Under the pieces are notes generated by a model that saw only the letters and a list, made by a program, of their open reading frames with translations, was not told where the DNA came from and did not search any database. A DNA stretch of 64,000 nucleotides from Chitinophagaceae bacterium (GTDB taxonomy: Bacteria > Bacteroidota > Bacteroidia > Chitinophagales > Chitinophagaceae), in the NCBI GenBank assembly GCA_024707305.1, contig JANPZZ010000010.1:45531-109530 (forward strand), in the 5' to 3' direction. The position numbers and the translations under genes are program-made. The stretch's first letter is position 1. Each line of letters begins with the position of its first letter. Shown here piece by piece: positions 4,672-53,140 of this stretch.

Positions 4672-5130
4672 TGAAGAATGAGGGGGATGAAGTGGAGGGA
4701 GATCGATGATCGATGATCGATGATCGTTGATCGATGGTCGATGTCCGATGACCGACTAAGACGGAACCTTCGGGAGTTTGGGGCTTGGTCGATGATCGAT
4801 GACCGATGTCCGATGACCGATGTTCGATGGAGGAAACAAATTTTTGTTCGATGGATGCGTCGTCCCGAAGGGACGGGATATCTGTAGCAACGAAATTCAT
4901 CAAATCGCCTGAGTCCCGAAGGGACGACATGTGAGCGGGGAATCGATGACGGGTAATCGATGACCGATGATCGATGATCGATGGTGAATGGATGCCGAAT
5001 GTGCGTGATCCCACTCCCTACGGCCGGAGCGAACTTTTGGCCTGTTAGGCGAACATCGGACCTCGGACATCGATCATCGGACATCGGTCATCGATCATCG
5101 GACATCGATCATCGGACATCGATCACCGAT
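4672..5130. repeat. composite hairpin element: CGATGAY heptamer arrays (4701-4757, 4788-4830, 4941-4985), centre 4986-5052, inverted RTCATCG array (5053-5130)
   Basis: Read directly: gatcgatgatcgatgatcgatgatcg... on the left and ...catcgatcatcggacatcggtcatcgatcatcggacatcgatcatcgg on the right. It fills the divergent intergenic region between 4587 and 5149. Confidence 0.85.
4788..4945 (+). repeat. dispersed ~150-nt module, copy A (heptamer array + twin GTCCC-GAAG-GGAC hairpins)
   Basis: 4857-4945 aligns by hand to the reverse complement of 39160-39252 at about 74 of 89 positions. The only divergent part is an 11-nt segment between the two hairpins. Confidence 0.8.
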
Positions 5131-6700: not shown

Positions 6701-6868
6701 AATCCCTGTAATCTGTGTCGCAATCCGTGTTGTAATCTGTGTTCATCTGTGTTGTCATCTGTGTACATCTGTGTGAAACATCCTCGAAATGAAATCTTCT
6801 TCTTCTTGGGGAGGTCTCCCACAGATGTCACACAGATGACAACACAGATTTACACGGATAATTGCACG
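6701..6868. repeat. hairpin element: ATCTGTGT-core units with 10-12-nt period (6701-6775), centre, CACAGAT-core units (6819-6868)
   Basis: Read directly: taatctgtgtcgcaatccgtgttgtaatctgtgttcatctgtgttgtcatctgtgtacatctgtgtg ... ccacagatgtcacacagatgacaacacagatttacacggat. Confidence 0.8.
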
Positions 6869-11841: not shown

Positions 11842-11900
11842 ACATCGATCATCGACATCGATCATCGTTCATCGACCATCGTTCATCTATCATCGATCAT
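11842..11900. repeat. one-armed RTCATCG heptamer array
   Basis: Read directly: acatcgatcatcgacatcgatcatcgttcatcgaccatcgttcatctatcatcgatcat. The stop codon of the downstream gene (11890-11892) lies inside the array. Confidence 0.75.
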
Positions 11901-13114
11901 TCAGCCACGGCATCTCCGGAATCAATGCCGGCACCTTATAGTAGTTGTTGCGCAGGCTATCATTCCAGCCGTTGGGGTTATTGTCAAATGTTTTTGAACT
12001 GAAGTAAATACTGCCGTGAATATTTTCGCTTTTACGCAGGAGCTTTATCTGGTTAGGCAACTCATTAGGATTCTTCCACGCGAGAGAGCGTTCATTTACT
12101 CTGTAAATACCGTGGCCGATGTATACGTGTCGGCCATAACTGTTTTTCGCCCACCAGTCCAGCATCGTTTTATAATCAATTTTGTCATGGCCGATTTCAA
12201 GATATAACTGAGGAGCTACATAATCGATCCAGCCTTTTTTCCAACCAAAGAAGAATGTCGGCATAGAGATCGTCGTAATTCGTTTGACCGGCTTTTGTAT
12301 TGCTACCACGCTCGTCTTTATCCTTGTTGCGCCACACACTGAAAGGAGAGATGCCAAATTTCACTTTTGGTTTCACCTGCCTGATGGCAACATGCAGTTT
12401 TTTTATAATTGAATCCACATTGCTGCGGCGCCAGTCGTCTTTGCTGAGTTTACTTCCTGATTTAACGTATGCAGCTGCATCAGGAAATTCTTTTCCGGCA
12501 ATACGATAAGGATAGAAGTAATCATCCATATGAATCGCATCCACATCGTAGCGGCTTACAATATCCTGCACCACTTTTACCACAAAAGCCTGCGCCTGTT
12601 TATTCGATGGTTCGAAGTATTTTTTGTCACCGTACGTTACAAACCAGTCGGGGTGCAGTTTGGTAACATGATTGGATGCGATAGAAGCTGTTTTTACATT
12701 GAAGTTGGCTCTATAAGGGTTCAGCCATGCATGAAATTCCATTCCTCTTTTATGCGCTTCATCAATCATGAACTGCAGTGGGTCGTAATAAGGAGTGGGT
12801 GCTTTGCCCTGAGTACCCGTAAGCCACTGGCTCCAGGGTTCAAGTGAAGAGGGGTAAAATGCATCACCCGAAGGACGCACCTGCACAATCACCGCATTCA
12901 TACCATTTTTCTTATGCATATCCAGTATCCGAATATAGTCAGCACGTTGATTGGTGGGATTATTATAATCGGCACGTTTTGGCCAGTCAATATTATCTAC
13001 TGTGGCAATCCATACACCGCGGAATTCATGCGTAGGTTGCGCAAATAATTGTACTGAAACAAAAAGCAAAAACAGAAAGGATAGTTTTTTCAAAAGCATG
13101 GTAATATTATTCAT
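11890..13114 (-). pseudogene. glycoside hydrolase family 10-like (YngK/GHL10-type) secreted protein, one frameshift at T6 run 12235-12240
   Basis: ORFs 12197..13114 (signal peptide, FRGVWIATVDNIDWP) and 11890..12357 join if one base is removed from the homopolymer. The restored reading is LLWLEKGWIDYVAPQLY. Confidence 0.65.
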
Positions 13115-13262: not shown

Positions 13263-13739
13263 TTATTTTTCCCTGATCTTATCAAGCAGTTCACTTAGCT
13301 GTGCTGCTTCTTTTTTACTGAGGTTACTGAGAATGCCATCCATCTCATCCTGGCGAATATCGAGACGTTCCAGTAATTTTTTCCCTTTATCTGTAATGAT
13401 CACATCCACCAGTCTGCGATCTGTTTTGCAAACAGCCTTCTTCACCAACCCCTTTGCAATCAATCGGTCTACAATGCGACTGGTATCACTCATTTTATCC
13501 AACATACGATCACGGATCTGCAGCGTTGATAAGGGCTGCGGAAAACTGCCCCGCAATATGCGAAGGATGTTGAACTGCTGCGACGTAATGTCTTCCGAAG
13601 CAAATATTGCTTTCGACTTTTCCGTCATCCAGTTGTGTGTATAAACCAGGTTTATATACGCCTTCTGGTATTCGTTGCGAAATTTCGCCTGGTGGATATC
13701 CTGTTCAATGCCCATGGTACGATCGTTTAATTGCATCAA
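13263..13739 (-). CDS. MarR family transcriptional regulator
   Basis: 158-aa ORF with a winged-helix region (ITSQQFNILRILRGSFPQPLSTLQIRDRMLDKMSDTSRIVDRLIAKGLV). A TAACTTTG (TAnnTTTG-type) box lies on the minus strand at 13756-13763. Confidence 0.8.
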   Translation of the reverse strand: MMQLNDRTMGIEQDIHQAKFRNEYQKAYINLVYTHNWMTEKSKAIFASEDITSQQFNILRILRGSFPQPLSTLQIRDRMLDKMSDTSRIVDRLIAKGLVKKAVCKTDRRLVDVIITDKGKKLLERLDIRQDEMDGILSNLSKKEAAQLSELLDKIREK

Positions 13740-13877
13740 TGAAAACCAACTTATGCAAAGTTAATGGTTAAACATCGATTTTATAGTGTTGTCGGCGCTT
13801 ACTGTCAAATTTAGGAAGTCTTTATAATGCAAGAGGGATATTGGCTTACGAAACCTGAAAGATTGGGATGAATTGTG

Positions 13878-14907
13878 TTAGTCGCCCCACACTTTGGTTC
13901 CTTCCGAACAATTGGCACAGATGTCAATCTCTTTCCGTCCGCGTAAAATGCGTGCACGAAAAGCGCGGTACTCACCATTTTTTCCAGATATCACGGAAGC
14001 TCTCGTTGCGCAGGTTGCCCATACGATACTGTGCATCTTTATCAAAGCAACAGGGGGCAACCAGCCCGTCCCAGGTAATAACAGGATCGTGCCACAAACG
14101 CCAGCACTGATTTTGCATTTTGCCTTTAAAGCGCGTGCCCTGTGGTGTTTTTTTATAACGGCTGTATTCTTCTCGTGTCGGTATCAGGTTATTGGGATCG
14201 TTTTCATAATCGTAAATCTGTGCGGTTTTAAACCACACGTCGTCTACGCCTATTTCCTTACCCAGTTTTTTTACATCTTCAATCTGGTGCTCGTTAGGTT
14301 GTACCACCAGAAACTGAAATACCACAAAAGGTTTGGTGCTCTTCAGTTCTTTTTCCATTTTACAATGTTGCGGGCGCCTTCAATTACTTTATTAAGTTGT
14401 CCGCCCACGCGGTATTGTTCATATACTTCCTGCGTGGTGCCATCAATGGAAATGATGAGACGATCGAGTCCGCTTTCAATGGTGCGTCGCGCATTTTCAT
14501 CCGTCAGGTAATGCGCATTGGTAGATGTGGCCGTGTAGATCTTTTTTATCAGAAGCATACTTCACCATCTCCAAAAAGTTGGGATTGAGATAGGGTTCGC
14601 CCTGGAAATAAAATACGAGATACAGCAACTCCCGGTGCATCTCGTCGATCGTTTGCCGGAAGAAGTCTTTTTGCAACATGCCCGTTGGCCTCGTAAAGGA
14701 CCTTAACCCACTGGGGCACTCAGGGCAGCGAAGATTACAGAAATTGGTAGGCTCAAATGAAATGGAAATGGGATAACCCCATTGTACCGGTTTCTTTGTC
14801 CATTTACTGATGTAATAGCTGCTCCAAACCTTTAACCCATTCCACAACCTTCGCGCGGTCAGCTTCGATAAAAGATTTTTTGCATCCTGGGTATGAAAAC
14901 GGGACAT
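13878..14907 (-). pseudogene. radical SAM/SPASM domain protein, three frameshifts as sequenced
   Basis: Four overlapping fragments read continuously (14497..14907, 14343..14558, 13972..14358, 13878..14060). They carry FCNLRCPECPSG (CxxxCxxC), ISIDGTTQEVYEQYR, and SPASM-like cysteines (APCCFDKD .. ICANC). Confidence 0.7.
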
Positions 14908-14930
14908 GAGGCAAAGTTAGCGGGTTTACA

Positions 14931-15158
14931 GGAGGAATTGAGGGGGGAAGATGGGGGATGGGGGATGGTGGATGGGGGATGGAGGATGGTGGATGGGGGA
15001 TGGAAGATAGGGGAGGGAAGATAGGGGATGGAGGATGTATTTTTAGAGTGGGGGAAACCCGATCTTGCATTTAAATGGGGTATGTTTCCGCTCGCCCGGT
15101 CCTTCCACCATCCACCATCCCCCATCCTTCCTCCTTCCACCATCCACCATCCCCCATC
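14931..15158. repeat. hairpin element: GGGGATG-type 7-nt arm (14931-15037), 63-nt centre, CCATCCC-type arm (15101-15158)
   Basis: Read directly: gatgggggatgggggatggtggatgggggatggaggatggtggatgggggatgg ... ccaccatccaccatcccccatccttcctccttccaccatccaccatcccccatc. Confidence 0.85.
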
Positions 15159-15161
15159 AAT

Positions 15162-16579
15162 TTACACTTTCACCATCTTCCACTTCCCTTTCCGGAAAAT
15201 GAAATAAGCCGCGATGGCGATGGCGGTTTCGGCAACGGGGATGGCAATGAACGCCCCTACGGGACCCCAACCCAGCACCATTGCCAACAATATTCCCAAC
15301 GGGATCTGAAAAAGCCAGAATCCAAAGAAATTGATCAGTGTAGGCGTTTTTGTATCGCCGGCCCCATTAAGTGTTTGTATCATCACCATACCAATTCCAT
15401 AAAAAATGTAACCGGCGCCGATAATCTGCAACGCCTGCGCGCCGATGTCGACAACAGCAACATCATTTGAAAAAATGCTGATGATGGCTCCTGGGAAAAA
15501 CACAAACAAAACCGTAACGAATGACATAAACACAGCATTGTACTTCGCTGTAAGCAATGCACTGGTTTCCGCACGCTCAGGTTTTCCGGCGCCCAGGTTC
15601 TGACCCACCAGGGTTGCAGCCGCATTACTTAATCCCCATGCAGGAAGTATAAAGAATATTACATTGCGCATGGCTACCTGGTATCCTGCCGATGCTTCGG
15701 TACCGCCCGTATGCGCCACCAGCCATGCCAGCACTACCCAGCTGCCAGAAGCCAGCACAAATTGAAATGTTGCAGGCCATGCAAGTTTTGTGAGTGACTT
15801 CAACACGGTGAAATCGGGAAGAAAATCGGCTTTCTTCATGCTGATATTTCCCTTGCCACGCCACAGGTGCCAGCATTGATATAACACACCCACACCGCGG
15901 CTAATGGTAGTAGCCACTGCTGCACCTTCCAGTCCCATGCGAGGGAACGGCCCCAGGCCTTTAATCAATACCGGACAAAGGATAATATTGAGTATGCTCG
16001 CCAGCCAAAGACTTTGCATGGCCATTACAGCATTGCCGGCTCCACGGAAAATACCATTGATCAAAAAAGTAAAACGATCACAACACTACCTCCCAGCATA
16101 ATCCGCGCGAAATTCGTCCCTTCTTTCACCACATCGGGTTCGGCACCCATGATGCGAAGAACATCCGCAGCAAATACAAATCCGAGTATGCTGATAATGA
16201 TTGTGACCAGTAATGAAATAATAATCGCCTGCGCACCTGCATGCGATGCCCCTTCGCGATTCTTCTCTCCAATACGTCGTGCTACCGTAGCAGTAGCTGC
16301 TATACTTAATCCCATCGCGATGGCGTACACCAACGATATTACAGACTCGGTAAGTCCCACCGTTTGGATCGCATTCTTTCCCAATTCTCCTACGAAATAC
16401 ATATCCACCACAGCGAAAACGCTCTCCAACCCCAACTCAAGAATCATGGGTATGGCAAGTAATACAATTGCTTCGCGAATGCTTCCTGATGTATAATCAC
16501 GCTCTTCGCCACGCAGCGTTTGACGTATAAGTGCCCGGTAACGGGCAGATTTATTCCTGTTTGTCCCGGTTTGCGACAT
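15162..16579 (-). pseudogene. MATE family efflux transporter, one frameshift at A6 run 16063-16068
   Basis: ORFs 16061..16579 and 15162..16064 abut out of frame. Both are polytopic membrane sequence typical of MATE (N-terminal IREAIVLLAIPMILE .. VDMYFVG). Confidence 0.75.
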
Positions 16580-37004: not shown

Positions 37005-37022
37005 GGGATAATGTTGCGAGCC

Positions 37023-37233
37023 GGCAAACGACAAACGGCAAACGGCAAACGGCAAACGTGAAAAGAAATTTGCAAATGATGAGACCTATGCGTATTCTGC
37101 GTAAAAGTTTCTCTCCGGAGAAGGTTCTCACAGATTACACGGATTTGATCACAGATTACGCAGATTTTTAACTTTCATATTTGCCGTTTGCCGTTTGCCG
37201 TTTGCCGTTTGCCGTTTGCCGTTTGTCGTTTGG
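37023..37233. repeat. nested hairpin element: GGCAAAC arm (37023-37058), 121-nt centre containing CACAGAT-type units and a TCTCCGGAGA palindrome, GTTTGCC arm (37179-37233)
   Basis: Read directly: ggcaaacgacaaacggcaaacggcaaacggcaaacg ... ctcacagattacacggatttgatcacagattacgcagat ... tttgccgtttgccgtttgccgtttgccgtttgccgtttg. Confidence 0.85.
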
Positions 37234-37246
37234 CGAATCTCACGCC

Positions 37247-39113
37247 TCACATCAGCAACGCTCCCGCCGCAAGGTATCTCCATTCATACGCTTTGGCATC
37301 ATACGCATCAGTTGCTGCGTGGGTAGTTGCCAAAGCTTTTTCATTCAACACTTTTTGTTTTACCAGTTCGCGTTTTGATTCGTGAATTAGTTCCTGCATA
37401 CGCGCATCCTGCATCCATTTTTTTTGCGGAGGCTCAAAGCCAACTTTGTCTTTGCGCCAGGTGATGCTTTCCGGTAAACAGGATTGCATACTGGTTCGGA
37501 GCAGCCATTTAGTCCAGCCGTCTCTTATTTTGAACGAGGCAGGAAGCGTAAAGAGGAACGCTACCATTTTATGATCAAGGAACGGAAGGCGCAGTTCACG
37601 ACCATGATGCATGGCATTCCGATCCGCATAGCGCAGCAATTCTTCCAAACCATGTACACAAGTGTTGAAATGAAGAAGTCCATTCAGGTTTCTTATTTCG
37701 GGTGCTGTATAGTACGCGGCACGACTTTGTTTTTTTACAAACTCCTGATGCAAATCTTCATGACGTAGTGCATTCACGAGGTATTGCCGTTCCAGGATTA
37801 CAGCAGCAAGTTCAGGGAACAAAGCCGCCATCACATTCTTAAAACCAAATTCTTCCGTCACACCCAGCTCGCGGGCTTTGCCGATTTCTTTACTTCGCAG
37901 CAATTTTCTTTTTGAAATAATTCCTGCCAGTACCACTTATAGTATTTATTATACCCTGCAAGTGTTTCGTCGGCGCCTTGTCCGTCGAGTAGTACAACCG
38001 TGCCCTGTTGTGCTGCCGCCTCAAAAGTTTTGAATTGTGCAAACACGCTGGCAGACCCTATTGGCTCTTCCTGTATGTTAATCAGTTTCCGCCATTCATC
38101 GGCAAGATCAAAAGCTACCGGCTCCACCGTATGATGACAAAATCCAAAATGCGCGGCAACCTGTTGCGCCATTGCCAGTTCATCTTTTTCAAAGCCGGGG
38201 GAAATGCGCCGTAAAACAATCAAACGAAGAAGGGTCGGCAATATGTTGTTGTATAAAACATGCAATGCTACTGCTGTCGAGCCCACCGCTTAAGGATGAT
38301 CCAACTTTTACATCGCTGCGCAATCTCCGCTTTACCGATGCGGACAGCATCGATGTGAATTTTTCCTGTGCCTCTTCCGGTTTAATTTTTACGTTTTGTT
38401 CATCCGTATCAATATCCCAGTATTTTTCAATCTCCAGCTTGTGGTTGTGTAACGAATAAAATAACCGGCTTGCAGCAGGAAGTTTATGTATTCCCTCAAA
38501 AAACGTCTCTTCGGGTTTTGCAGGATTATCGGTGTATCCGATTGTAATAAAATTGAAAAGCATGCGGGGATTTACCGTGCGCATCACACCTGCTGCCCAC
38601 AGTGCTTTCATCTCTGAAGCAAAAAAGAAACTGTTGTTTATCCTTAAAAAAATAAAGAGGTTTTTCACCAAAACGATCTCGCGCGGCAAACAATTCTTCA
38701 TTCTCATGATCCCAAATAGCAAAGGCAAACATGCCATCGAAGTGTTCCACACAATCGTCCTGCCAGTAGTCATAGGCGGCAAGAATTACTTCCGTGTCCG
38801 ACTGCGTCTTAAACTGGTAACCCTCGTTTCCGAGCTCTTTACGTAGTTCAATGTAATTGTAGATCTCGCCGTTGTGTACAATGCTGTATTGGATGGTGTT
38901 CCTTTCCCGGTCCGAAAAATGCATCGGCTGCGCCGCATTCTCCGAGAGATCGATTATGGCAAGTCGGCGATGGCCAAGCATTACCTTCTGGTCGCTTCGG
39001 CTCCAGTGCCCTTCACCATCCGGCCCCCGATGCGCCAGCGCATCCGTCATGCGATGCAAATGCACGGGACCAAAACGCGGCGTTGATTGTATGATTCCTG
39101 CAATTCCACACAT
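37247..39113 (-). pseudogene. asnB: asparagine synthase (glutamine-hydrolysing), three frameshifts as sequenced
   Basis: The start is at MCGIAGII (Ntn Cys2). The fragments 38526..39197, 38189..38782, 37858..38286 and 37247..37936 read through, with the PP-loop SLSGGLDSS in the second fragment. Confidence 0.85.
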
Positions 39114-39159
39114 GATTCGTTGCCCGAAGGCTATGTAAAAAATTAAATTTATCGACCCT

Positions 39160-39310
39160 CGATTCCCCCGCTCATATGTCGTCCCTTCGGGACTCATTTC
39201 ATGGGGAGAAATTCATTGCTACAGATATTCTGTCCCTCCGGGACGGCGCGTGTATGCGATCAAATTTACGACCTCCCCCGGACATCGATCATCGATCATC
39301 GACCTTCCAT
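39160..39310 (-). repeat. dispersed ~150-nt module, copy B (inverted relative to 4788-4945)
   Basis: The reverse complement reads gcgccgtcccggagggacagaatatctgtagcaatgaatttc...tgagtcccgaagggacgacatatgagcgggggaatcg. It is flanked by the catcgatcatcgatcatcgac array (39281-39314). It fills the whole asnB / DUF2911 intergenic region. Confidence 0.8.
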
Positions 39311-43222: not shown

Positions 43223-43660
43223 ATGAAAAAAATAACTATTCTATTACCCGTATTACTCGCAGCGGTGCTGATGAGTTTTACAACTCCTGGTGAAAATGAT
43301 CTCGCTCGCCAGAATTTCAGCCGCCAGTTTGCCGGTGCGGAACATGTGAAATGGACTACGCTGGACAATGACTTCCAAAAAGCCAGTTTCGTTTGGGGCG
43401 GCAGCCGCACTGAAGCTTATTTCACAACAAAAGGTGAGTTTGTAGGTGCTATCCGCGGCCTGCTGTTTCAACAACTTCCGCTGGTAGTTGCACGTATGGT
43501 GGATCAAAAATTCCAGAACCGTGTAATTCTCGAAGTACGTGAAGTAACCAATGCCGAAGGCACATCTTACTCTATCCTGATGGACTGGAAAAACAAACGC
43601 TACCGTGCCCGCCTCCAGGCCGATGGTGCTGTAATTGAGAATGAGGTGGTGAGGAAGTAG
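43223..43660 (+). CDS. small secreted protein, PepSY-like/BLIP-like (tentative), paralogue 3
   Basis: The start is taken at MKKITILLPVLLAAVLMSF within ORF 43112..43660. The motif is ARQNFSRQFAGAEHVKWTTLDNDFQKASF. Confidence 0.5.
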   Translation: MKKITILLPVLLAAVLMSFTTPGENDLARQNFSRQFAGAEHVKWTTLDNDFQKASFVWGGSRTEAYFTTKGEFVGAIRGLLFQQLPLVVARMVDQKFQNRVILEVREVTNAEGTSYSILMDWKNKRYRARLQADGAVIENEVVRK

Positions 43661-43663
43661 GAA

Positions 43664-43830
43664 TTCGATGACCGATGTCCGATGACCGATGATCGATGAA
43701 GTCTGACAATGCAGGATACCCACCTGAATGCGGGATCGGTATACTTACAGTCTAAACCTACATCGACCATCGGTCATCGGTCATCGGTCATCGACCATCG
43801 GTCATCGGTCATCGGTCATCGATCATCTAT
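43664..43830. repeat. hairpin element: CGATGAC-type arm (43664-43700), 60-nt centre (43701-43760), GTCATCG-type arm (43761-43830)
   Basis: Read directly: ttcgatgaccgatgtccgatgaccgatgatcgatgaa ... catcgaccatcggtcatcggtcatcggtcatcgaccatcggtcatcggtcatcggtcatcgatcatc. Confidence 0.85.
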
Positions 43831-43850
43831 CTTTTCCTTACTTTTGCTCC

Positions 43851-47080: not shown

Positions 47081-47302
47081 AAATGTGGAAATGTGAAAAT
47101 GGGGAAATGTGGAAATGAGAAAATGAGAAAATGAGGAAATGTGACAATGTGGCAATATGTAAATATGTAAATGAGAAAATTTGGGGTTAAATAATTTCGG
47201 AAAATATAGAACACGGTTTCAATTTTCTTCATTGCCACATTGACACATCGTCATATTAGCACATTTCCCCATTTCCACATTTACCTCATTTCCACATTTC
47301 CA
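47081..47302. repeat. hairpin element: GGAAATG-type arm (47081-47180), 50-nt centre, CATTTCC-type arm (47231-47302)
   Basis: Read directly: aaatgtggaaatgtgaaaatggggaaatgtggaaatgagaaaatgagaaaatgaggaaatgtgacaatgtggcaat ... attgccacattgacac...cacatttccccatttccacatttacctcatttccacatttcc. It uses the same oligomer family as 324-510. Confidence 0.85.
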
Positions 47303-51910: not shown

Positions 51911-53092
51911 ATGAAAATGCATAGAACAACTATTTTACTGTTCCTGTTTGCCTTACAGGTTCCGCTGATTAGTAACTCGCAATCTACAAATGCCGGGCTT
52001 ATACAGCGCTACCCCTTTCTGAATATTTCGCAGAACCGGATACAACAGCCTTCACATCTCGACAGCTTTTTTCAACAGTTAGCGCTCACTGGTATAACAG
52101 AAGGATCTGTGGTTTCGATTGTTCATATTGGCGACTCGCACATTCAACCTGATTTGATGGGCCAGGTATTGAGGCAAAGTTTTCAGCAACGCTATGGCAA
52201 TGCGGGCCGTGGCCTGGTGTTTCCCTACCAGCTTGCGGCATCTAATAGTCCCGACGATGTGAGAACCAGTTCCCCACAACGCTGGCAATTTAACCGGCTC
52301 GCCCATCCCGAAATAAATACTCCATATGGAATTTCAGGATATGGTATCGTTAACAATAACAGCACAGCAGAATTCCGTTTGCAACTGCGCGGATCGGGTA
52401 GCACAGCAAACCACTTTTCGCGCATGCTACTTTTCACCGACAGCAGCAGCACCTGGACTGCAAAGCCCACCGGCAGCGATAGCACATTTGTTCTGAATAG
52501 ATCTGCGGAATACAATTTTCTACACGAACTTATATTGCCTGATACTGTAAACGACATCACTTTTTCCGCCATCGATTCTTTTCAAAAACCTTCGTTATAT
52601 GGAATTGAATTATCTAATAACAGACCCGGTGTTACATTTCACAGCATCGGCGTAAATGGCGCGCGGGTAGATCATTTCAACCGGGCTGAAAAATTCTGGG
52701 AGCAGTTGCCCATATTGAAAGCGAAACTTTACATCGTATCGCTGGGCACCAATGAGGCGCAGGCCCGCGTATTTAACGAAGCAAATTTTTTGAAAGAATT
52801 GCAGAAGATGCTGACGCGCCTGCGTGATATTTCTCCGGACGCGAGTTTTCTTTTTACTACGCCACCAATTTCTTTTCGGGGAAAAATGATCAATCCCAAT
52901 CTGGAGCGGATTCGGAAAACGATTGTCTCATTTTGCAAGGTGAATAATATCGCCTGCTGGGATCTGCGTTCTGTATTATCAACACGCAGCGGGTTCCTTC
53001 GCATTATGCACCGCGACCGGATCCATTATACTGCTGAGGGTTATCGATTGATGGGGAGGCTGCTGAGAGAATCGATGATCGATGGTCGATGA
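51911..53092 (+). CDS. SGNH/GDSL hydrolase family protein (secreted)
   Basis: The start is taken at MKMHRTTILLFLFALQ. Block I is IVHIGDSHIQPD, block III is SLGTNEA and block V is DRIHYTAEGY. The last codons are heptamer-array sequence (ESMIDGR). Confidence 0.7.
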   Translation: MKMHRTTILLFLFALQVPLISNSQSTNAGLIQRYPFLNISQNRIQQPSHLDSFFQQLALTGITEGSVVSIVHIGDSHIQPDLMGQVLRQSFQQRYGNAGRGLVFPYQLAASNSPDDVRTSSPQRWQFNRLAHPEINTPYGISGYGIVNNNSTAEFRLQLRGSGSTANHFSRMLLFTDSSSTWTAKPTGSDSTFVLNRSAEYNFLHELILPDTVNDITFSAIDSFQKPSLYGIELSNNRPGVTFHSIGVNGARVDHFNRAEKFWEQLPILKAKLYIVSLGTNEAQARVFNEANFLKELQKMLTRLRDISPDASFLFTTPPISFRGKMINPNLERIRKTIVSFCKVNNIACWDLRSVLSTRSGFLRIMHRDRIHYTAEGYRLMGRLLRESMIDGR

Positions 53093-53131
53093 TTGTTGAT
53101 CGAGCCCCCTTCGGGGTGTCGGGGGGCTACT
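53072..53131. repeat. one-armed CGATGAT array followed by a GC hairpin
   Basis: atcgatgatcgatggtcgatgattgttgatcg is followed by agccccc-ttcggggtgtcg-gggggct. It lies between convergent gene ends (53092 and 53141). Confidence 0.65.
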
Positions 53132-53140
53132 ATCGAAACT

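What the first reader, a model, noticed from the sequence alone, without database searches (positions are those of the whole stretch)
15038..15101. Elements with unrelated arm oligomers share a homologous centre
Two elements with unrelated arms have homologous centres.
- The centre of the GGGGATG-armed element is 15038-15082 (tatttttagagtgggggaaacccgatcttgcatttaaatggggtat).
- It aligns without gaps, starting exactly at the arm/centre junction, to the reverse complement of the centre of the CGATGAC-armed element at 43716-43760 (taggtttagactgtaagtataccgatcccgcattcaggtgggtat).
- I count 28 identities in 42 positions, plus TAT after a 1-nt gap.
- A weaker version of the core (GAATG-N-CG-N-GATC, ccgaatgtgcgtgatccc) lies in the centre of the composite element at about 4998-5015.

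A conserved core flanked by arms that have been swapped or re-grown suggests a functional unit, with arms generated secondarily. That unit could be a protein-binding site, a small RNA or a recombination site.
Basis: seen in the sequence. Interest (0 to 1): 0.72.

Follow-up and report, generated by a model that had tools for sequence, protein, structure and literature searches.

The report
Two diverged copies of heptamer-armed hairpin
Two long hairpin-forming repeats that sit just after gene ends in an uncultured Chitinophagaceae genome do share a related 45-base centre, but this looks like common descent within a fast-changing, dispensable class of intergenic repeats, not a conserved functional core.

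Summary
The core observation holds. The centre at 15038-15083 (+) aligns to the reverse complement of 43716-43760 with 28/42 identities plus TAT. In an alignment anchored at the arm/centre junction, no family-wise shuffle reached the score (0/2000). An unanchored local alignment gives family-wise p of about 1-3%. Against the whole 64-kb window it is not significant (E 0.2-1.2).

Two parts of the finding fail:
- The arms are not unrelated. Both are (GATG+3)n heptamer arrays, and the innermost units match 9/11.
- The "weaker version" at 4998-5015 is not above chance.

No third copy of the centre was found in the window, in 162 kb of relatives, or as an armed element in 596 Gb of genomes, the metagenome collection or viral contigs.

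Other evidence bears on function:
- Elements with the same arms have unrelated centres.
- A sister strain with about 99% identical flanks carries a different element at the 43.7-kb site, with GATGGGG arms and an unrelated centre. That centre is therefore dispensable.
- At another locus the arm copy number varies (5, 3 or 2 units) on the same centre.
- Orthologous sites in relatives hold plain hairpins, differently armed hairpins or no element.

Best reading: two diverged members of one lineage of post-stop-codon palindromes, with rapid arm turnover. A small apical hairpin with compensatory changes (p about 0.01) keeps a functional core possible but unproven.

The parts
14912..14919 (-). TAACTTTG, a Bacteroidota-type -7 promoter box 4 nt upstream of the radical-SAM ATG (14905-14907). 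It marks the downstream limit of the intergenic space that holds element E5.
   Evidence: Read. The same box and spacing occur in relatives that lack the element. The TAnnTTTG consensus is from my own knowledge of Bacteroidota promoters.
14950..15037 (.). E5 arm 1: 12.6 tandem heptamers, GATGGGG with variants GATGGTG, GATGGAG, GATGGAA and GATAGGG.
   Evidence: TRF; inverted-repeat pairs I3, I10 and I13.
15038..15099 (+). E5 centre (62 nt), the unpaired apex of the long hairpin.
15038..15083 (+). Segment of the E5 centre that is homologous to E8 (28/42 identities plus TAT). Read this way it is antisense to the flanking genes.
15057..15081 (.). Apical small hairpin ACCC-GATC-TT-GCATTTA-AA-T-GGGT within the shared segment.
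   Evidence: RNAalifold; column-shuffle control.
15100..15158 (.). E5 arm 2: about 8 heptamers (CCACCAT/CCCCCAT), complementary to arm 1. It ends 3 nt from the stop codon of the MatE gene fragment (15162-15164, - strand).
43666..43699 (.). E8 arm 1: 4.9 heptamers (CGATGAC, CGATGTC, CGATGAT). It starts 5 nt after the TAG stop (43658-43660) of the 145-aa hypothetical gene.
43700..43760 (+). E8 centre (61 nt).
43716..43760 (-). Segment of the E8 centre that is homologous to E5. Like the E5 segment, it is antisense to the flanking genes and abuts the promoter-proximal arm.
43717..43741 (.). Apical small hairpin of E8 (TACC-GATC-CC-GCATTCA-GG-T-GGTA).
43761..43827 (.). E8 arm 2: 8.6 heptamers (CATCGGT, with CATCGAC every fourth unit).
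43839..43846 (+). TACTTTTG -7-type box 4 nt upstream of the deoxyhypusine synthase ATG (43851).
   Evidence: Read. It is conserved in the sister-strain allele.

Best explanation
E5 (14950-15158) and E8 (43666-43827) are two diverged copies of one lineage of intergenic palindromes.

Anatomy. Each element has two inverted arrays of 7-nt units with a GATG core, around a centre of about 60 nt. Each sits in the same slot of a transcription unit: it begins 3-5 nt after the stop codon of the upstream gene and ends before the TAnnTTTG box of the next co-directional gene. The centres have the same orientation relative to transcription.

Why the centres match and the arms differ. The shared 45-nt stretch is inherited sequence. 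The arms differ because they turn over much faster. Units are gained and lost in 7-nt steps, presumably by replication slippage, and variant units spread along an array. Whole elements can also be exchanged between strains.

Function (inferred, not shown). The part that matters is probably the long hairpin as a whole. When transcribed it folds at -82 to -112 kcal/mol at the 3' end of the upstream message. It could act as a terminator or a 3'-end protecting structure, or it could simply be tolerated there. The centre is the apex of that hairpin. Its small inner hairpin may persist because it nucleates folding or is copied with the palindrome, not because a specific factor reads it.
For: Homology:
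- 28/42 identities anchored at the junction; 0/2000 family-wise shuffles reach the score.
- The two centres are reciprocal best non-self hits in the window.
- The centres have the same orientation relative to the flanking genes, and the elements have the same position relative to stop codon and promoter box.
- Both arms share the GATG core, and the innermost units match 9/11.

Fast arm turnover:
- Copy number at the E6 element is 5, 3 or 2 units on the same centre in different samples.

Whole-element exchange:
- L035 and L036 have flanks 98.7-99.5% identical to the window but carry GATGGGG arms and an unrelated centre at the E8 site. L037 carries the window allele.

The hairpin slot, not the sequence, is what recurs across most relatives:
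- Relatives have a plain 16-bp hairpin (L030, -30.5 kcal/mol, z -4.7) or a GCAAACC-armed hairpin (L031, -42.7, z -6.3) at the E5 site, and an ordinary terminator hairpin at the E8 site (L008). One relative (L045) has no array at the E5 site.
- Whole-element folds are -112 and -82 kcal/mol, z -7.4 and -7.65.

The centre is not a general core:
- No third copy by pattern, HMM or covariance model.
- No armed copy in the public collections.
- Elements with the same arms have unrelated centres.

Other:
- A second dispersed repeat in the window (4856-4940 and 39165-39255, 88% identical, with its adjacent array starts) shows that array-associated sequences do get copied between loci.
- The element class is described elsewhere. 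In Xanthomonas, convergent pairs of heptamer arrays lie close to the upstream ORF and vary in length between species (PMC4692102).
Against: - Only two copies are known, and the rest of the source genome (an NCBI MAG, locus-tag prefix NVV59) could not be read. 'Family' therefore rests on one pair.
- Against the whole window the similarity is not significant on its own (E 0.2-1.2; +2/-3 scoring).
- Divergence is not uniform. About 45 nt are similar, while the remaining 16-18 nt of each centre are unrelated.
- All five differences inside the hairpin part are transitions, four of them in compensatory pairs. That is what constraint on a structure would give.
- No target-site duplication, no transposase and no donor copy were found. 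The way copies reach new loci is unknown.
- A terminator role is inferred from position and stability only. The simple terminator scan finds nothing, and only E8 is followed by a T-rich stretch.
Confidence: 0.58

Rival explanations
1. The shared centre is a functional unit. A small hairpin with conserved flanks would be read by a protein (for example an enzyme that mobilises or processes the palindrome) or would act as a small RNA or recombination site. Heptamer arms would grow around it secondarily.
For: - The consensus hairpin keeps its pairing through 3-5 double substitutions. Column shuffles reach this in about 1% of trials, and reach the alifold energy in 0.25-2.9%.
- All differences in that part are transitions.
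- The centres have the same orientation relative to transcription, and the alignment has the same register from the arm junction.
- The hairpin lies at the geometric apex of both palindromes.
Against: - There are two copies only.
- It is absent from orthologous sites in relatives and from 162 kb of related DNA.
- No armed copy was found in genomes, metagenomes or viral contigs.
- It is replaced by an unrelated centre in a sister strain with about 99% identical flanks.
- Other elements of the same arm class lack it.
- The centres alone fold no better than shuffles (z -0.16 and -0.68).
- There is no Rfam match.
- No candidate partner gene appeared among the roughly 40 ORFs scanned.
Confidence: 0.2
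2. Arms and centres are separate modules that are reshuffled by recombination between elements. On this view the E8 centre was acquired from an E5-like element (or the reverse), and the two elements did not descend as wholes from one ancestor.
For: - The two alleles at the E8 locus each share one module with E5. The window allele shares the centre. The L035/L036 allele shares the arms: 28 nt are 100% identical to 14948-14975, and 67 nt are 85% identical.
- Pairs with the same arms and different centres are frequent.
Against: - The E5 and E8 centres are only 67% identical while the strain flanks are 99% identical, so any transfer was old or came from an unseen third copy.
- Arm similarity between loci can arise from the limited set of GATGG-type units.
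- No recombination junctions can be identified.
Confidence: 0.15
3. The resemblance is chance, found by eye among many repeat-rich intergenic regions.
For: - It is not significant with +2/-3 scoring.
- Whole-window E-values are 0.2-1.2.
- The third alleged copy is noise.
- The core motif also turns up by chance in coding DNA, for example phosphoketolase genes.
Against: - The junction-anchored score was never reached in 2000 family-wise shuffles.
- The binomial probability of 28/42 at a fixed register is 4.6e-8.
- The pair is the reciprocal best hit, has the same orientation relative to the genes, and has related innermost arm units.
Confidence: 0.07

Closest known systems
Convergent (inverted) pairs of heptamer simple-sequence-repeat arrays in Xanthomonas (GGGAATC), and related G-rich heptamer arrays in Nostoc (Rehm et al. 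2015, PMC4692102)
   Same: - Tandem 7-nt units.
- Two arrays in convergent orientation that can form stem-loops.
- Intergenic, close to the end of the upstream ORF (about 28 nt on average).
- Mostly between co-directional genes.
- Length and sequence variation between close relatives.
   Different: - Xanthomonas has one unit type genome-wide. This window alone has at least five (GATG+3, AAATGTGR, CGGCAAA, CACAGATG-like and others), and relatives have more.
- Arms here are longer, and centres are 45-120 nt of unique sequence.
- A shared centre between two loci, and whole-element allelic replacement, were not described in what I read of that paper.
Long simple sequence repeats and STRR heptamers of cyanobacteria and some Bacteroidetes (Mrazek 2007 and Mazel 1990, from my own knowledge; TAACTGA repeats, MacGregor 2015, PMC4679880)
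   Same: - Intergenic heptamer arrays with strain-specific presence and length.
- Found in Bacteroidetes as well.
   Different: - Those are mostly one-sided direct arrays, often just upstream of start codons.
- Here most are paired inverted arrays placed just after stop codons.
REP/BIME extragenic palindromes and their RAYT transposases (Di Nocera et al. 2013, PMC3733652, abstract seen; otherwise my own knowledge)
   Same: - Hairpin-forming repeats between genes, after stop codons.
- Proposed roles in termination and mRNA stabilisation.
- Dispersed copies that diverge.
   Different: - REPs are 20-40-nt palindromes with a conserved GTAG or CGTC head and hundreds of copies.
- Here there is no such head, the arms are tandem arrays, only two copies are known, and no RAYT-like gene is in the window.
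MITEs that contain tandem repeats, such as the Porphyromonas gingivalis MITE with an internal minisatellite (PMC4596501, abstract seen) and pneumococcal BOX elements (my own knowledge)
   Same: - Small non-coding dispersed elements in Bacteroidota or other bacteria.
- They combine inverted ends with variable tandem modules.
   Different: - In those elements the tandem part is internal and the inverted ends are unique sequence. Here the inverted ends are themselves the tandem arrays and the unique part is internal.
- No target-site duplication was seen.

Membership tests
Inverted heptamer SSR pairs (Xanthomonas type, PMC4692102) | Tandem arrays of a 7-nt unit, three or more copies | tested here: met
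   TRF: 12.6 and 8.3 copies (E5); 4.9 and 8.6 copies (E8).
Inverted heptamer SSR pairs (Xanthomonas type, PMC4692102) | Two arrays in convergent orientation close together, able to pair | tested here: met
   Inverted pairs I3, I10, I13, I16 and I24 are 73-92% complementary. Folds are -112 and -82 kcal/mol, z about -7.5.
Inverted heptamer SSR pairs (Xanthomonas type, PMC4692102) | Intergenic, nearer the upstream ORF end; length variable between relatives | tested here: met
   The elements start 3-5 nt after stop codons. Copy-number variation is seen at E6. Relatives have different or absent elements.
Inverted heptamer SSR pairs (Xanthomonas type, PMC4692102) | A single G-rich unit type genome-wide with G-quadruplex potential | tested here: not met
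   There are several unit types in one 64-kb window. Only the E5 arms are GGGG-rich. Quadruplex formation was not tested.
MITE | Multiple dispersed copies with recognisable common sequence | tested here: inconclusive
   Two copies of the centre in 64 kb.
MITE | Target-site duplications flanking the terminal inverted repeats | tested here: not met
   No direct repeat brackets either element on reading the flanks. The allele comparison at E8 shows replacement between the stop codon and ATCGATCA, without a duplication.
MITE | A related autonomous element or transposase with matching ends | not testable with these tools
   None among the roughly 40 window ORFs scanned with Pfam. The whole genome was unavailable.
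REP/BIME with RAYT | 20-40-nt imperfect palindrome with a conserved GTAG or CGTC head | tested here: not met
   The apical hairpin ACCCGATC...GGGGT has no such head, and the arms are tandem arrays.
REP/BIME with RAYT | RAYT (Y1 transposase) gene in the genome | not testable with these tools
   Not in the window. The rest of the genome was not readable.
Intrinsic (Rho-independent) terminator | Stable hairpin shortly after the stop codon | tested here: met
   Position read.
Intrinsic (Rho-independent) terminator | Short loop and a U-tract directly after the stem | tested here: not met
   The scan finds no terminator-like site. The loop is about 60 nt. A T-rich tail (TCTTTTCCTTACTTTT) follows E8 only.
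Known RNA family (Rfam 15) | Match at or near a family's gathering score | tested here: not met
   No gathering-level hit in the window. Only generic long-hairpin (miRNA-precursor) matches far below threshold.

The most novel reading that the evidence does not exclude
The 25-nt apical hairpin and its conserved 5' flank (TAnnTTTAGAnTG) are the recognition site of a so-far unidentified hairpin-specific enzyme. That enzyme would copy these palindromes into the slot just after stop codons, and heptamer arms would then be built outwards from the site. This would be a new kind of small mobile element whose inverted ends are generated, not inherited. It would explain three things: the shared centre with different arms, whole-element replacement between strains, and the recurrence of GATG-type units.
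Probability: 0.1. Interest if true: 0.7.

Novelty: new member of a known kind. Interest (0 to 1): 0.3.

Why it matters
If the centre were a true functional core, it would point to a factor that seeds or moves heptamer-armed palindromes. That would give a handle on why heptamer arrays accumulate after gene ends in some bacterial lineages, which is still unexplained.

As it stands, the value is descriptive:
- It documents that in this Chitinophagaceae lineage a hairpin just after the stop codon recurs at orthologous sites in most relatives examined, while its sequence does not.
- It shows that arms change by unit gain and loss within a population.
- It shows that whole elements differ between strains with 99% identical flanks.

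These repeats also break short-read assemblies at exactly these sites. That matters in practice for MAG reconstruction.

Tried and rejected
- **Third copy at 4998-5015.** Not recovered by HMM (E<=100), covariance model (E<=10) or pairwise scoring.
- **Known RNA family.** None.
- **Peptide.** Both centres carry a small gene-sense ORF that ends on the same TAA: 43696-43755 (MKSDNAGYPPECGIGILTV) and 15111-15043 (MVEGPGERKHTPFKCKIGFPPL). Of the 11 aligned codons, 7 differ non-synonymously and only 1 synonymously. The ATGs come from the arm units. Rejected as coding.
- **Antisense promoter.** TATTTTTA and TAGGTTTA at the junction resemble the Bacteroidota -7 box TAnnTTTG, but both lack the final G and there is no -33 TTG in the arm. 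The sigma-70 scan is empty. Left as unsupported.
- **Ancestral local sequence.** The relative L030 has GATCTGGCATT 10 nt after the MatE stop, against GATCTTGCATT in E5. It is on the opposite strand relative to the genes, and the local score is at null level (p 0.16).
- **Wide conservation.** Core-motif scans returned 7 (genomes), 0 and 15 (metagenomes) and 2 (viral) hits. All are in coding or unrelated DNA without arms. Examples are phosphoketolase genes and, repeated on several contigs, one GC-rich stretch without arms. No plasmid match.
- **Reaching the rest of the source MAG or the E5 site in the sister strain.** The exact-protein look-ups failed.
- **Transposase or other mobilising gene in the window.** None found.
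- **Stability of the centres alone.** Not different from shuffles.

Full report
**What is in the window**

The window (GC about 44%) comes from an uncultured Chitinophagaceae bacterium.
- A 145-aa hypothetical protein and a MatE fragment encoded here are 100% identical to proteins of an NCBI MAG. The hypothetical protein carries locus tag NVV59_07515, and the contig is 190,849 bp.
- The deoxyhypusine synthase has its best relatives (up to 93%) in Chitinophagaceae and Chitinophagales MAGs.

Tandem Repeats Finder and the inverted-repeat search show about ten intergenic elements built from tandem 7- or 8-nt units. Most are two arrays in inverted orientation around a unique centre of 45-120 nt. 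I call the finding's two elements E5 and E8:

| | Arm 1 | Centre | Arm 2 |
|---|---|---|---|
| E5 | 14950-15037 | 15038-15099 | 15100-15158 |
| E8 | 43666-43699 | 43700-43760 | 43761-43827 |

**Checking the observation**

The sequences are as quoted. The E5 string is 46 nt and so ends at 15083. The ungapped alignment of E5 (+) to the reverse complement of E8 gives 28/42 identities followed by TAT after a 1-nt gap.

How far above chance it is depends on the search space.

| Test | Result |
|---|---|
| Stringent +2/-3 scoring | pair not distinguished |
| +1/-1 scoring, pairwise shuffles | 2/5000 reach the score |
| Family-wise over all nine centres | 3-13 of 400 shuffles reach it |
| Each centre searched against the whole window | reciprocal best non-self hits, E = 0.2-1.2 |
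| Junction-anchored prefix score | 14 observed; null maximum 11 in 2000 family-wise shuffles, also 11 when 3 nt of slack is allowed (400 shuffles) |

The alignment begins exactly after the last GATG of an arm in both elements. That is why the anchored test is the fair one. I take homology as probable, about 85-90%.

Two other statements in the finding do not hold.
- **The arms are not unrelated.** Both are GATG+3 heptamers. The units next to the shared centre are GATGGAGGATG|TA and GATGGTCGATG|TA, which is 9/11 identical.
- **The 'weaker version' at 4998-5015 is not real.** A profile HMM of the two centres does not return it at E<=100. A covariance model with filters off does not return it at E<=10.

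**Context**

Both elements lie between co-directional genes.
- E5 follows the stop of a MatE gene fragment by 3 nt (- strand). It precedes TAACTTTG-cctc-ATG of a radical-SAM gene.
- E8 follows the TAG of the 145-aa gene by 5 nt (+ strand). It precedes TACTTTTG-ctcc-ATG of deoxyhypusine synthase.

The homologous segment runs on the + strand in E5 and on the - strand in E8. The two centres therefore have the same orientation relative to transcription, and in both the segment abuts the promoter-proximal arm.

As RNA the whole elements fold into long hairpins: -112.2 kcal/mol (z -7.4) and -82.3 kcal/mol (z -7.65).

**A small hairpin in the shared centre**

RNAalifold on the two centres predicts an apical hairpin at E5 15057-15081 and E8 43717-43741.
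- The outer stem is ACCC/GGGT in E5 and TACC/GGTA in E8.
- The inner stem is TT/AA in E5 and CC/GG in E8.
- Three to five pairs are kept through changes on both sides.
- All five differences in this part are transitions.

Column shuffles of the alignment reach the observed number of compensatory pairs in about 1% of trials, and reach the energy in 0.25-2.9%. This is suggestive, but it rests on two sequences. Each centre alone folds no better than its shuffles (z -0.16 and -0.68).

**Search for further copies**

None was found in the window by pattern with 3 mismatches, HMM or covariance model.

| Collection | Pattern | Hits | Nature of hits |
|---|---|---|---|
| 185,579 species-representative genomes | CCGATCYYGCATTYARRTGGG | 7 | close to the roughly 9 I estimated by hand for chance; none with arms, two of them in phosphoketolase genes |
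| Metagenomes | 26-base strict pattern | 0 | - |
| Metagenomes | 18-base pattern | 15 | unrelated or coding |
| Viral contigs | core pattern | 2 | unrelated |
| Plasmids | centre as blastn query | 0 | - |

HMM and covariance-model searches of the related Chitinophagaceae loci fetched here gave nothing (162 kb for the HMM, 91 kb for the model). Rfam has no match.

**Orthologous sites and alleles**

This was the most informative part.

At the E5 site (MatE stop to radical-SAM start):
- Relatives with about 80% nucleotide identity have a plain 16-bp hairpin with no tandem units (L027, L029, L030).
- Relatives at about 75-82% have a short hairpin with GGTTTGC/GCAAACC heptamer arms and an 11-nt centre (L031).
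- GCA_046297935.1 has 140 nt without arrays.

At the E8 site:
- GCA_031423115.1 has an ordinary terminator hairpin.
- An 80% relative has an AATGTGA-type array.
- Short contigs from runs SRR25375766 and SRR25375755 have flanks 98.7-99.5% identical to the window. They carry a different element there, with GATGGGG/GATGGTG arms and an unrelated 80-nt centre with its own hairpin. Of those arms, 28 nt are 100% identical to E5's arm.
- Run SRR25375774 has the window allele.

At the 37.0-37.2 kb element (E6), different samples show 5, 3 or 2 CGGCAAA units in front of the same centre start.

An 80% relative carries many further heptamer-armed hairpins, with other units, at sites where the window has none. 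GATG+3 units are among them.

Three conclusions follow:
- A hairpin just after the stop codon recurs at orthologous sites in most relatives examined, while the sequence of the element does not.
- Arms change by unit gain and loss within a population.
- Whole elements, centre included, are interchangeable between near-identical strains.

**Same arms, different centres**

E1 and E9 share AAATGTGR arms. E8 and the composite element at 4.9-5.1 kb share CGATGAY arms. E5 and the L035 allele share GATGGGG arms. All three pairs have centres with null-level similarity. The E5/E8 centre is therefore not a general property of the class.

**Interpretation**

The simplest account is common descent of two copies of one palindrome lineage, combined with fast arm turnover. 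That predicts what is seen:
- a recognisable but diverged centre (67%);
- arms of the same GATG class whose outer units have drifted apart;
- no conservation beyond the lineage.

A second dispersed repeat in the window shows that array-associated sequence does get copied between loci in this genome. Its copies are at 4856-4940 and 39165-39255 (reverse strand), 88% identical, together with the starts of the adjacent CGATGAY arrays.

How copies move is unknown. I saw no target-site duplication, and no transposase among about 40 ORFs.

The function I think most likely is that of the whole hairpin at the 3' end of the upstream transcript: termination or protection against 3' exonucleases. It may equally be only tolerated there. 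This is inferred from position and stability. It is not shown, and canonical terminator features are not met.

The functional-core reading is kept alive mainly by the compensatory pattern in the apical hairpin. The sister-strain allele that lacks the centre argues against any locus-specific necessity.

**Relation to known things**

Inverted pairs of heptamer arrays close to the end of the upstream ORF, variable between close relatives, were described for GGGAATC in Xanthomonas. That paper also cites the idea that 7-nt units are favoured by polymerase slippage (PMC4692102). Intergenic heptamer arrays are known in cyanobacteria and a few Bacteroidetes (PMC4679880).

The present elements differ in three ways:
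- many unit types occur in one genome;
- the centres are long and unique;
- whole elements are replaced between alleles of the same locus.

I file the finding as a new member of a known kind. It is of modest interest unless a genome-wide scan shows that the centre recurs.

**Limits**

The rest of the source genome, and the E5 site in the sister strain, could not be reached. Short-read contigs break inside the arrays. All structural inference rests on two sequences.

Noticed in passing
window 4856-4940 (+) and 39165-39255 (-): A second dispersed repeat of about 85 nt, with two GTCCCGAAGGGAC hairpins around ATATCTGTAGCAA. The two copies are 88% identical, and the similarity continues into the start of the adjacent CGATGAY arrays. 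The only Rfam matches are weak partial ones to Acido-Lenti-1, far below threshold.
   Followed up: partly
L035 598-800 and L036 1122-1325 versus window 43661-43830: This is a within-species allele replacement. The flanks are 98.7-99.5% identical, but the whole element differs. The other allele has GATGGGG arms and an unrelated 80-nt centre with an AAAGGCTCC/GGGGGCCTTT hairpin followed by a T-rich stretch. The right boundary falls at a shared ATCGATCA.
   Followed up: yes
window 37022-37058 versus L041-L044 ends: Arm copy-number polymorphism among samples: 5, 3 or 2 CGGCAAA units before the same centre start (GTGAAA(A/G)GAAATTTG).
   Followed up: yes
window 13263-14907, 15162-16579, 37247-39197, 11890-13114: Several genes are split into consecutive ORFs: radical SAM, MatE, asparagine synthase (four pieces) and the GHL10 hydrolase. 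Relatives have them intact (342, 472, 625 and 402 aa). This is either assembly indel errors in the MAG or real pseudogenes. A short-read contig (L037) is 100% identical to the window over 1152 nt.
   Followed up: partly
window 47260-47302, 11843-11900, 325-339; L045 14458-14593: Arrays run into the 3' ends of coding regions. The last codons of TatC, of the GHL10 gene and of the ORF ending at 339 are made of array units. In GCA_046297935.1 a one-sided (GAGAGGT)19 array covers the GHL10 stop codon at the site where the window has (CATCGAT)8.
   Followed up: partly
window 14950-15037 and complement of 15100-15158: The E5 arms are (GGGGATG)n-like, with four or more GGGG runs spaced by 3 nt on the 5' arm of either strand. 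They could compete between G-quadruplex and hairpin folding, as discussed for GGGAATC and GGGGATT repeats in PMC4692102. Not tested.
   Followed up: no
window 37128-37167 inside the centre of the 37.0-37.2 kb element; window 6707-6849: The centre of the CGGCAAA-armed element contains its own direct repeat, TCACAGATTACACGGATTTGA x1.9. Its CACAGAT core resembles the arm units of the element at 6707-6849. This suggests nested or decayed arrays inside centres.
   Followed up: no
window 43696-43755 (+) and 15111-15043 (-): Small gene-sense ORFs of 19 and 22 aa start at an arm ATG and end on the same conserved TAA of the shared centre. The aligned codons are mostly non-synonymous, so the ORFs are probably incidental.
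   Followed up: yes
L008 3508-3585 versus window 47081-47302: At the rpiB-tatC intergenic site a relative (GCA_031423115.1) has a miniature version of the same architecture with another unit: TAGGTGT/AACACCC arms and an 18-nt centre. The window has AAATGTGR arms and a 75-nt centre at that site.
   Followed up: partly
window 53071-53135: A one-sided (ATCGATG)4.7 array overlaps the end of the ORF that stops at 53092. It is followed by a GC-rich hairpin with a UUCG-type loop (GAGCCCCCTTCGGGGTGTCGGGGGGCTAC). The site lies between convergent genes.
   Followed up: no
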